Notes under the pieces: model-generated
What the model was told of the DNA's origin: nothing
The model's input: the letters and a program-made list of their open reading frames with translations, nothing else
Database searches by the model: none
Position numbers and translations under genes: made by a program
DNA from: an uncultured Gammaproteobacteria bacterium
GTDB lineage: Bacteria; Patescibacteriota; Patescibacteriia; UBA1558; GWA2-36-10
NCBI GenBank assembly: GCA_964394835.1
Contig: CAYMZA010000001.1
Span: forward strand, 1-58,476
Direction of reading: 5' to 3'
DNA length: 58,476 bases
In this document: positions 25,163 to 25,906 of the stretch, piece after piece
Numbering within the stretch: the first letter of the stretch is position 1
How the letters are laid out: the number at the start of each line of letters is the position of its first letter

Positions 25163-25191
25163 TTGACAAAACATATAAAATATGCTATTAT
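25163..25191 (+). promoter_or_regulatory. near-consensus sigma70 promoter of the GC-rich lipoprotein gene
   Basis: TTGACA (25163-25168), 17-nt spacer, TATTAT (25186-25191). The ORF-track start at 25163 is the TTG of this -35 box and is therefore spurious. Confidence 0.6.
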
Positions 25192-25240
25192 ATTATGTTC
25201 GTTAACAAGAGAAAGAAAAACCCAAGAAAAGGAGAAAGCA

Positions 25241-25906
25241 ATGAAAATGAAGTCTCTAGTCATTATTCTGTGTGCAGCAGCCATTGTTTTTGTGTCTGGG
25301 TGTGCCAGTTACAAAAATATGTCCGGAGAAGAATTAAACACTAGCGCTAGTGATACACCAATCTTCACAGCAACATTTGTCAATAAATCACTTCAACCGA
25401 TTTTTGTTGACTTCAAGGATGGGTCAAGAGATCTGCGAATGAATTTTAGGCAAATTAACCCAGGAGAATCTTTGTCATTCAAGTCCAAAACCTACAAAAA
25501 GGTTAAATACACTATTGCTTGGTGGCATGAGTATGGCTTTGGCTCAGAAGAACGGCACGTTAAACTGGAAAGAACAGGTATGTACACTGGTTCACCAGTT
25601 GTCATCGATGAGCTGTTCCTACGGAACAAAATGCTACAATCAGGAGTAGTGGTTAATTGCACACCTGAACCTATTAAGGTTTGGGATTCGCAGGGAACAA
25701 AGTATGGCATTATCCAGCCTGGAGAGGCCAGTGCTGTAACAATGCTGATACCCACGCAAACCATATTCCACTGGGCGCCCACAGAAAACAAGTGGCGCTT
25801 ACAGCACACAACAAAGAATGTTACTATTAACATCGACCAAATGGATAACCAATACTGGAATGGATCAGCAATTGGTTGGAAAGTACAAATCCTAAGAAGT
25901 CGATAA
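25241..25906 (+). CDS. lipoprotein of unknown family, compositionally foreign (GC-rich)
   Basis: ATG at 25241, 6 nt after AAAAGGAGAAAG. Signal peptide MKMKSLVIILCAAAIVFVSGC with lipobox VSG|C. Internal two-fold repeat (FVNKSLQPIFVDF...INPGESLSF and VVNCTPEPIKVWD...IQPGEASAV). G+C is 26/60 and 31/60 on sampled lines, against 8/60 in the adjacent gene. Confidence 0.8.
   Translation: MKMKSLVIILCAAAIVFVSGCASYKNMSGEELNTSASDTPIFTATFVNKSLQPIFVDFKDGSRDLRMNFRQINPGESLSFKSKTYKKVKYTIAWWHEYGFGSEERHVKLERTGMYTGSPVVIDELFLRNKMLQSGVVVNCTPEPIKVWDSQGTKYGIIQPGEASAVTMLIPTQTIFHWAPTENKWRLQHTTKNVTINIDQMDNQYWNGSAIGWKVQILRSR

What the first reader, a model, noticed from the sequence alone, without database searches (positions are those of the whole stretch)
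25163..25243. The two GC-rich islands share a homologous promoter and leader 24.6 kb apart
Seen in sequence, comparing 25163-25243 with 49769-49847:
- Both start with the identical 10-mer TTGACAAAAC.
- Both continue with ATAAA(A)TAT-type spacers and a TATTA/ATATTA -10 region.
- Both then carry the identical 9-mer TGTTCGTTA (25196-25204 and 49809-49817).
- Both then carry AACCC followed by an AAGGAGA-type SD (AACCCAAGAAAAGGAGAAAGCAATG versus AACCCTAAGGAGAGGAAAAAGTG) and the start codon.

The motifs are colinear in both. My rough estimate is that a chance shared 9-mer between two 80-nt AT-rich stretches has probability around 0.1 or less, and colinearity with the other blocks makes chance less likely still.

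Inference: either both units are controlled by the same factor (TGTTCGTTA near the transcription start could be an operator), or both GC-rich bodies arrived on the same kind of expression cassette.
Basis: seen in the sequence. Interest (0 to 1): 0.6.

Follow-up and report, generated by a model that had tools for sequence, protein, structure and literature searches.

The report
Common promoter-leader module in Patescibacteria
The two GC-rich units do share promoter and leader strings, but these are the standard strong-expression signals of this tiny CPR (Patescibacteria) bacterium, including an apparently undescribed leader heptamer GTTCNTT used by dozens of small accessory genes, not a private link between the two islands.

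Summary
The similarity is more than chance, but it is not specific to this pair.

- **Promoter.** TTGACAAAAC is the -35 hexamer plus the A-tract typical of this genome's promoters.
- **Leader.** TGTTCGTTA is the rare N=G form of a heptamer, GTTCNTT. It lies between the -10 and a strong Shine-Dalgarno (SD) sequence.
- **In this genome.** GTTCNTT heads the unbiased 7-mer enrichment upstream of strong SDs. It occurs in 25 of 51 strong-SD leaders and 4 of 550 others.
- **In the family.** It scores 143 hits against 20 for a composition-matched control.
- **In the phylum.** The enrichment recurs patchily.
- **In viral contigs at large.** There is no enrichment.

Genes carrying the motif are small stand-alone accessory units. 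Their GC3 is higher on average, but ordinary AT-rich genes such as tdk carry it too.

The 25163/49769 pair ranks only 56th of 1770 promoter-pair alignments. The true paralogue of 25163 lies on contig C13.

Unit 2, promoter included, is a 233-bp indel relative to the sister species. Unit 1 is conserved there.

How GTTCNTT works is unresolved, because read mapping was closed. An earlier follow-up on this genome had already called island 2 a strain-specific insert.

The parts
25163..25168 (+). -35 hexamer TTGACA of unit 1, followed by the A-tract AAAC (25169-25172)
   Evidence: TTGACA-17-TATTAT, 11/12 matches; 33 of the 161 TTGACA in the genome continue as TTGACAAAA.
25183..25191 (+). Extended -10 of unit 1 (TGc TATTAT)
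   Evidence: TG before the second hexamer: yes. The same ATATGCTATTAT block occurs at C13:12319 and C9:10698.
25197..25203 (+). Leader heptamer GTTCGTT (GTTCNTT class), 5 nt after the -10 and 25 nt before the SD
   Evidence: The G001 orthologue reads GTTCTTT.
25229..25234 (+). Shine-Dalgarno AAGGAG, 6 nt before the ATG at 25241
25241..25906 (+). 221-aa lipoprotein gene (signal peptide ending VSGC). GC 0.41, GC3 0.41, against a genome median GC3 of 0.14
   Evidence: The G001 orthologue is 62% identical with GC3 0.28. 31 distant homologues were found.
25910..25943 (+). Terminator-like hairpin closing unit 1
   Evidence: -20.7 kcal/mol, z -7.0. The G001 hairpin has the same shape with changed inner-stem bases. 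The U-tract is short.
25142..25169 (-). Divergent promoter for the DUF2079-like gene. Its -35 overlaps the -35 of unit 1
   Evidence: TTGTCA-16-TATAAT, 11/12 matches, minus strand.
49758..49990 (+). About 233 bp present here and absent from the same ruvA-U32 spacer in sister species G001. This is the whole of unit 2
   Evidence: No match in 30 relatives, metagenome contigs or elsewhere in the genome.
49769..49774 (+). -35 hexamer TTGACA of unit 2 (plus AAAC)
49792..49800 (+). Candidate -10 of unit 2: TGTAAT (17-nt spacer), or TG-t-AATAAT as an extended -10 (20-nt spacer)
   Evidence: Read. Not called by the scan's criteria.
49810..49816 (+). Leader heptamer GTTCGTT of unit 2
   Evidence: The leader resembles C13:12985 (GTTCGTTtgttt..tAACCCt..AAGGAGG).
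49831..49836 (+). Shine-Dalgarno AAGGAG(AGG), 8 nt before the GTG at 49845
49845..49946 (+). 33-codon GC-rich ORF (MSKTRAGMRRILSATTTIWEGDVESRPNKTGQL). No homologue, and no terminator follows it
   Evidence: The fold is not better than shuffles (z -0.86). No Rfam family matched.
49999..50027 (+). Native promoter-like site of the U32 gene (TAGACA-17-TTTAAT), retained downstream of the insert and conserved in G001
   Evidence: alignment to G001. This is an inference from the sequence and is below the threshold of the scan.

Best explanation
Both units are stand-alone expression cassettes built on the standard strong-expression module of this Patescibacteria lineage. The module has four parts:
1. 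A sigma-70-type promoter close to consensus: TTGACA plus an A-tract, often with a TG-extended -10.
2. A 5'-proximal leader heptamer, GTTCNTT.
3. A short A/C-rich, G-poor spacer.
4. A strong Shine-Dalgarno sequence, AAGGAG(G).

TGTTCGTTA is simply the rare N=G version of the heptamer.

The module fronts small, fast-evolving, lineage-restricted accessory genes. These usually have their own terminator, and many have raised GC3. That is why both GC-rich islands carry it.

Shown here: the motif's existence, specificity, position, orientation and distribution.

Inferred only: how the heptamer acts. My best guess (about 40%) is that it works on the transcript, as a leader element that aids translation initiation or mRNA stability of these units. 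It tracks the SD more closely than the -10, and it also occurs in spacers inside operons.
For: - **Unbiased enrichment.** In the 50 nt upstream of 84 strong-SD starts, the top 7-mers are GTTCTTT (11 observed, 0.68 expected), GTTCATT (7, 0.29) and GTTCGTT (4, 0.09).
- **Link to the SD.** 25 of 51 strong-SD ORFs carry GTTCNTT, against 4 of 550 others. Motif-bearing genes have mean GC3 0.25 against 0.15 (Mann-Whitney p 2e-8).
- **Family (39 genomes).** GTTCNTT-N2-25-AGGAGG-N3-10-ATG gives 143 hits. The composition-matched CTTGNTT gives 20.
- **After consensus promoters.** GTTCGTT gives 32 hits (28 in relatives). A frequency-matched heptamer gives 2.
- **Phylum sample.** 336 hits against about 125, concentrated in some families.
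- **Viral contigs at large.** 22 hits against 47 for the control, so no enrichment.
- **Motif properties.** N is unconstrained, and the gap to the SD has a median of 9 nt. Single-base variants lose most of the signal, and the reverse complement is weaker.
- **The pair is not special.** The 25163/49769 alignment ranks 56th of 1770 promoter pairs.
- **Ordinary genes carry it.** tdk and others do.
- **The orthologue varies at N.** The G001 orthologue of unit 1 reads GTTCTTT.
Against: - In this genome, 4 of the 7 GTTCGTT (N=G) sites precede GC3-anomalous genes. 25163 and C13:12319 are clearly paralogous over about 100 nt. Some real common descent of cassette heads therefore exists beneath the shared consensus.
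- The distances from -10 to motif (about 1-20 nt) and from motif to SD (2-31 nt) are both loose. The site of action is not pinned down.
- Some promoter+GTTCGTT units in relatives look non-coding. That argues against a purely translational role.
- My gene calls and SD calls are crude: longest ORFs plus regular expressions.
Confidence: 0.7

Rival explanations
1. Private regulon. TGTTCGTTA, next to the transcription start, is the operator of one transcription factor. That factor co-regulates the two GC-rich islands, or all GTTCGTT units.
For: The 9-mer is rare (3 per genome) and two copies sit just after promoters. GTTCGTT follows consensus promoters far more often than a control heptamer. In G000, 4 of 7 GTTCGTT sites front GC3-anomalous genes.
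Against: The central G is not conserved: the G001 orthologue reads GTTCTTT, and N follows base composition. There is no dyad or direct-repeat architecture. The distance to the -10 varies. The motif is orientation-specific and tracks the SD, including inside operons. It also fronts AT-rich genes.
Confidence: 0.1
2. Direct common descent. The two promoter-leader regions are paralogous copies of one mobile 'cassette head', which was duplicated or recombined in front of unrelated genes.
For: Such pairs do exist: C17/C22 (score 42.5), 25163/C13:12319 (37.5) and C13:8281/C19:6720 (33.5), each in front of unrelated ORFs. Unit 2 arrived, or was lost, together with its promoter. The leader at 49810 resembles the one at C13:12985.
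Against: The 25163/49769 pair itself scores 20.0, about 2 SD above the mean. 25163 matches at least five other promoters better or equally well. Outside the consensus blocks the two sequences do not align.
Confidence: 0.12
3. Mechanism rival for the heptamer. GTTCNTT acts on DNA during early transcription, as a promoter-escape or promoter-proximal pause element. It would be comparable to the T-rich non-template TTNTTT pause motif that depends on NusG in Bacillus subtilis.
For: 53% of family instances read TTCTTT, which fits TTNTTT. The motif lies within roughly the first 20 nt of transcripts from consensus promoters. It also follows promoters of units that look non-coding.
Against: G1 and C4 are specific, which TTNTTT does not explain, and the free position is shifted by one. 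The motif occurs in spacers with no visible promoter. The base before the G is mostly A, not the pyrimidine expected if G were a YRY-type start (PMC12641261).
Confidence: 0.2
4. Chance resemblance of two AT-rich upstream regions.
For: AT-rich promoters resemble one another. Shared AACCC and SD strings are weak evidence.
Against: Genome-wide and family-wide enrichment against matched controls.
Confidence: 0.02

Closest known systems
Sigma-70/sigma-A consensus promoters with an extended -10 (TGn)
   Same: TTGACA, a 17-bp spacer and TATTAT preceded by TG at 25163-25191. The same layout is seen at many units of this genome.
   Different: Nothing unusual at unit 1. Unit 2 has a consensus -35 but a non-canonical -10.
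Morons and similar stand-alone accessory cassettes (promoter-gene-terminator units of deviant composition, first described in lambdoid phages)
   Same: Own promoter, own terminator (unit 1), deviant GC, unrelated cargo behind similar heads. Unit 2 shows presence/absence polymorphism, and G001 has an extra cassette in the C13 island.
   Different: Not inside a recognisable prophage, and no viral relatives. Unit 1 and the C13 cassettes are retained in both species of the genus, so they are not recent arrivals.
Translational enhancers just upstream of a strong SD, such as the phage T7 gene 10 leader 'epsilon' element and U-rich S1-binding sites (recalled from the literature, not tested against a sequence here)
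   Same: A short pyrimidine/U-rich motif about 10-20 nt upstream of a strong SD in leaders of stand-alone, presumably highly expressed genes. Leaders such as GTTCTTTAACTAAGAAGGAGG (C4:15589) look much like such vectors' leaders.
   Different: No complementarity to this organism's 16S rRNA. G1, T2 and T6 are sequence-specific, unlike loose A/U-rich enhancers.
NusG-dependent pause motif TTNTTT of Bacillus subtilis 5' UTRs (recalled from the literature)
   Same: A T-rich, strand-specific hexamer in 5' leaders. Half of the instances are TTCTTT.
   Different: The invariant G and C are not part of that consensus, and the free position differs. No pausing data exist.
'Start' element (YRY at the transcription start) and lineage-specific initial transcribed regions (Kuo et al. 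2025, PMC12641261)
   Same: TGT at the predicted +1 of both units. The motif lies in the initial transcribed region.
   Different: The distance to the -10 is not fixed, and the base before the G is mostly A. That study defines a 3-bp element and includes no CPR genome.

Membership tests
Sigma-70-type promoter | -35 TTGACA-like and -10 TATAAT-like hexamers 16-18 bp apart | tested here: met
   Unit 1: 11/12 matches with TG. Unit 2: perfect -35, but its -10 fails the scan's criteria, so it is met only in part there.
Sigma-70-type promoter | Transcription actually starts 6-9 nt after the -10 | not testable with these tools
Moron-like stand-alone cassette | Own promoter and own terminator flanking a single gene | tested here: met
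   Unit 1: promoter and hairpin of -20.7 kcal/mol. Unit 2: promoter but no terminator, so not met there.
Moron-like stand-alone cassette | Composition deviating from the surrounding genome | tested here: met
   GC3 is 0.41 (unit 1) and about 0.6 (unit 2), against a genome median of 0.14.
Moron-like stand-alone cassette | Insertion polymorphism between related genomes, inside a phage or prophage | tested here: inconclusive
   Unit 2 is an indel relative to G001. Unit 1 is present in both species. There is no phage context and no viral relatives.
Transcription-factor operator / regulon | Dyad or repeat symmetry, fixed position relative to the promoter, conserved core bases across orthologues | tested here: not met
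   A single asymmetric heptamer, with variable distance to the -10. The central base changes in the orthologue.
Structured cis-regulatory RNA (riboswitch, leader) of Rfam | Match to a covariance model, or a fold better than shuffles | tested here: not met
   No family matched at gathering threshold or E<=10. Leader folds are not better than shuffles.
rRNA-complementary translational enhancer (epsilon-like) | Complementarity of the motif to 16S rRNA | tested here: not met
   No AANGAAC in the 16S gene or its 3' tail. The best 12-nt pairing is 9 of 12.
SD-sequestering leader hairpin (fourU-type) | The motif pairs with the SD in most members | tested here: not met
   Only the N=T/C forms pair (for example GUUCCUU/AAGGAG, -9 kcal/mol). 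The N=A/G forms, including both units of the finding, do not.

The most novel reading that the evidence does not exclude
GTTCNTT is a so-far undescribed cis-element of Patescibacteria leaders, read by a dedicated and still unknown factor. That factor could be an RNA-binding protein, a ribosome component or the transcription machinery. The element marks stand-alone accessory genes, which are small, fast-evolving and often GC-rich orphans. It sets their expression apart from that of core genes, which mostly lack both the motif and a strong Shine-Dalgarno sequence.
Probability: 0.3. Interest if true: 0.7.

Novelty: new variant of a known kind. Interest (0 to 1): 0.45.

Why it matters
For the finding as written, the result is deflating. 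The two islands are not tied by a private promoter or operator. They simply use the lineage's usual strong-expression signals.

The by-product is more useful. Gene expression signals in the uncultured Candidate Phyla Radiation (CPR) are almost unstudied. Here a specific 7-nt leader motif accompanies about half of all strong ribosome-binding sites in this genome. It is roughly 7-fold enriched over a matched control across the family, recurs in scattered families of the phylum, and is not enriched in viral contigs at large.

Three practical uses follow:
- It flags stand-alone accessory genes, including GC-rich orphans, in CPR genomes.
- It could improve gene-start and operon prediction there.
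- It offers a concrete element to test in the few cultivable Patescibacteria, and in expression constructs designed for them.

Tried and rejected
- **Known RNA families.** Rfam at gathering threshold on the window and 21 loci, and at E<=10 on island 2, found nothing but tRNAs.
- **Island 2 as a structured RNA.** The fold z-score is -0.86. It has no relatives in 30 genomes, in two metagenome scans or elsewhere in the genome.
- **Pairing of the motif with 16S rRNA or its 3' tail.** None found.
- **A common leader hairpin hiding the SD.** Only the N=T/C variants form one.
- **The G of the motif as a fixed transcription start.** The distance to the -10 ranges from about 1 to 20 nt, and the preceding base is mostly A.
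- **Phage origin of the cargo genes.** No PHROG hit for the island proteins and no viral-contig relatives. The motif-SD string is not enriched in viral contigs.
- **Acquisition from a known GC-rich donor.**
  - The C13:13031 protein has only one relative, 62% identical.
  - The word-indexed search for the lipoprotein returned nothing beyond its own sequence.
  - The full HMMER scan found 31 distant relatives of the lipoprotein.
  - No donor could be named.
- **Integron-type core site (GTTRRRY) at the cassette boundary.** The sequence does not fit, judged by eye.
- **LexA Cheo box (GAAC-N4-GTTC).** No upstream half-site, judged by eye.
- **Literature.** Two searches found no description of a CPR leader motif.

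Full report
**Setting.** The window is contig C1 of a 602-kb, 54-contig assembly with 27.8% G+C. Gene content, including TrbC-like mini-pilins, points to a CPR/Patescibacteria bacterium, and earlier notes on this genome agree. Median GC3 of its ORFs is 0.14.

**The observation.**
- Unit 1: TTGACA (25163), a 17-bp spacer, TGc-TATTAT (25183-25191), GTTCGTT (25197), AACCC (25219), AAGGAG (25229), ATG (25241). A 221-aa lipoprotein gene follows (GC3 0.41), then a strong hairpin at 25910-25943.
- Unit 2: TTGACA (49769), a less canonical -10 (TGTAAT or TG-t-AATAAT), GTTCGTT (49810), AACCC (49825), AAGGAG (49831), GTG (49845). A 33-codon GC-rich ORF follows, with no terminator.
- TGTTCGTTA occurs 3 times in the genome. 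The full two-block pattern occurs only at these two sites.

**Is it more than chance?** Yes. GTTCGTT occurs 30 times on both strands. Five copies lie 20-45 nt after one of the 161 TTGACA hexamers. Among strict consensus promoters it is the only G/C-containing 7-mer that recurs just after the -10, four times.

In 38 other genomes of the family, promoter-N3-14-GTTCGTT gives 28 hits. The reversed pattern gives 1. A heptamer of similar genome frequency, TGTCTGT, gives 2.

**Is it specific to the two islands?** No. I ran an unbiased 7-mer count in the 50 nt upstream of 84 strong-SD starts. The top three were GTTCTTT (11 observed, 0.68 expected), GTTCATT (7, 0.29) and GTTCGTT (4, 0.09), with GTTCCTT also raised. 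The element is therefore GTTCNTT.

- With crude gene calls, 51 of 601 ORFs have AGGAG or GGAGG before the start. Of these, 25 carry the heptamer within 70 nt. Only 4 of the 550 others do.
- In the family, GTTCNTT-N2-25-AGGAGG-N3-10-ATG gives 143 hits against 20 for the composition-matched CTTGNTT.
- In a 201-genome sample of the phylum, the counts are 336 against about 125. The excess sits in particular families, for example 34 against 1, 20 against 2 and 13 against 0.
- In viral contigs at large there is no excess: 22 against 47. The enrichment is therefore not a general property of SD contexts.

**Anatomy of the motif.**
- In the family, N is T 73, A 41, C 13 and G 11.
- The gap to AGGAGG has a median of 9 nt, against 16 for the control. 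The gap is A/C-rich and G-poor.
- G1, T2 and T6 matter most, and the reverse complement is much weaker.
- Where a -35 is visible, its end lies 24-43 nt upstream. The motif therefore starts within roughly the first 20 nt of the transcript, at no fixed distance.
- It also occurs in spacers with no visible promoter, for example dut-tdk in several genera.

**The pair in context.** I aligned 85-nt promoter-leader regions of 60 consensus promoters, giving 1770 pairs. The 25163/49769 pair scores 20.0, against a mean of 9.8 and SD of 4.9, and ranks 56th.

Real paralogue pairs stand out above it: C17/C22 (42.5), 25163/C13:12319 (37.5) and C13:8281/C19:6720 (33.5). Each pair sits in front of unrelated ORFs.

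**The GC-rich bodies.** Motif-bearing genes are small (63-364 aa) and mostly of unknown function. They have higher GC3 (mean 0.25 against 0.15, p 2e-8). Many are nevertheless compositionally native, such as tdk, a beta-helix protein and a hexapeptide-repeat protein.

- *Unit 2.* It is absent from the same ruvA-U32 spacer of the sister species G001. The indel (49758-49990) includes its promoter. The native U32 promoter-like site remains downstream. This agrees with an earlier follow-up on this genome.
- *Unit 1.* It is syntenic in G001, with promoter, GTTCTTT leader, a 62%-identical protein (GC3 0.28) and a hairpin of the same shape.
- *The C13 island.* Two cassettes here correspond to three in G001. 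The orthologues are far more diverged (about 62-70%) than the flanks (89-90%), and one keeps GC3 at 0.58-0.71.
- *Homologues.*
  - The C13:13031 protein has one relative, 62% identical.
  - The word-indexed search returned only the lipoprotein's own sequence.
  - The full HMMER scan found 31 distant relatives of the lipoprotein.
  - Neither protein has a viral relative.
- *Relatives.* Units behind promoter+GTTCGTT are likewise short, GC-elevated and terminator-bounded. They carry unrelated ORFs or look non-coding.

**Mechanism.** Shown: a strand-specific heptamer lies between the -10 and a strong SD, and it marks stand-alone accessory units.

Not shown: what reads it. I excluded three things.
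- Pairing with 16S rRNA.
- A common SD-hiding hairpin.
- Any Rfam family.

My ranking is below. These are conditional weights on how the heptamer acts. They are not the report-level confidences given for the rival explanations.
- Leader RNA element for translation or stability: about 40%.
- Early-transcription element (escape or pause): about 25-30%.
- Operator of a general factor: about 15%.
- Inherited passenger of copied cassette heads: about 15%.

**Literature.** Two searches found no description of such a motif in CPR. The nearest concept is the 3-bp 'start' element and lineage-specific initial transcribed regions (PMC12641261). Comparisons with morons, T7-type enhancers and the NusG TTNTTT pause motif rest on my own knowledge.

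**Verdict.** The finding itself is ordinary: shared standard signals. It does expose a lineage-wide leader heptamer that seems undescribed.

Noticed in passing
G000 contig C9:10440-10700 (minus strand), outside the window: A consensus promoter (TTGACA-17-TGc-TATTAT) runs straight into a GTG. This gives an apparently leaderless 44-aa hydrophobic peptide (MSVVCFVVALGAFVLVIID...) that ends at a terminator. A second consensus promoter on the opposite strand (C9:10523) reads antisense into it. The layout resembles a type I toxin-antitoxin pair.
   Followed up: no
window 25142-25191: The -35 hexamers of two near-perfect divergent promoters overlap back to back (TTGACA on plus at 25163-25168, TTGTCA on minus at 25169-25164). 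One serves the lipoprotein gene and the other the DUF2079-like gene.
   Followed up: partly
window 49999-50039: The native U32 peptidase promoter-like site (TAGACA-17-TTTAAT) ends only about 9 nt before the ATG. This gene may therefore be nearly leaderless. The strong promoter of the upstream insert has no terminator and could read into it.
   Followed up: no
G000 C13:12300-13560 and G001 C1:37400-39000 (L048, L051): A mini-island of tandem promoter-gene-terminator cassettes next to a tRNA gene at the contig end. There are two cassettes in G000 and three in G001. One orphan family keeps GC3 at 0.58-0.71 in genomes whose median GC3 is about 0.14.
   Followed up: partly
Relatives: L004 (G007), L001 (G025), L035 (G005), L027 (G036): Small ORFs behind promoter+GTTCGTT with extreme GC3 (0.60-0.87) sit in AT-richer surroundings. 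The cause of this GC enrichment is unexplained. Candidates are a foreign origin, biased gene conversion in frequently exchanged cassettes, or selection.
   Followed up: no
L006, L028, L029 (three species of genus g4): A conserved GC-rich transcript-like unit starts GTTCGTTCGGGTTTCGGGCGCC..GTAACGAGTGGAACTCGTTGAAAT, with no conserved ORF and no Rfam match. It is a candidate small RNA. L008 and L031 (genus g2) carry another.
   Followed up: no
G000 C2:49065-49700 and relatives (L055-L069): Thymidine kinase follows dUTPase (dut-tdk) and is patchy in the family. It was found in 13 of 39 genomes and not found in the sister species G001.
   Followed up: partly
whole genome G000: Only about 8% of ORFs (51 of 601, by crude calls) have a core AGGAG/GGAGG Shine-Dalgarno, although the 16S 3' end carries a normal CACCUCCUUUC anti-SD. 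The ribosomal protein genes checked (S21, L24) lack the GTTCNTT motif.
   Followed up: partly
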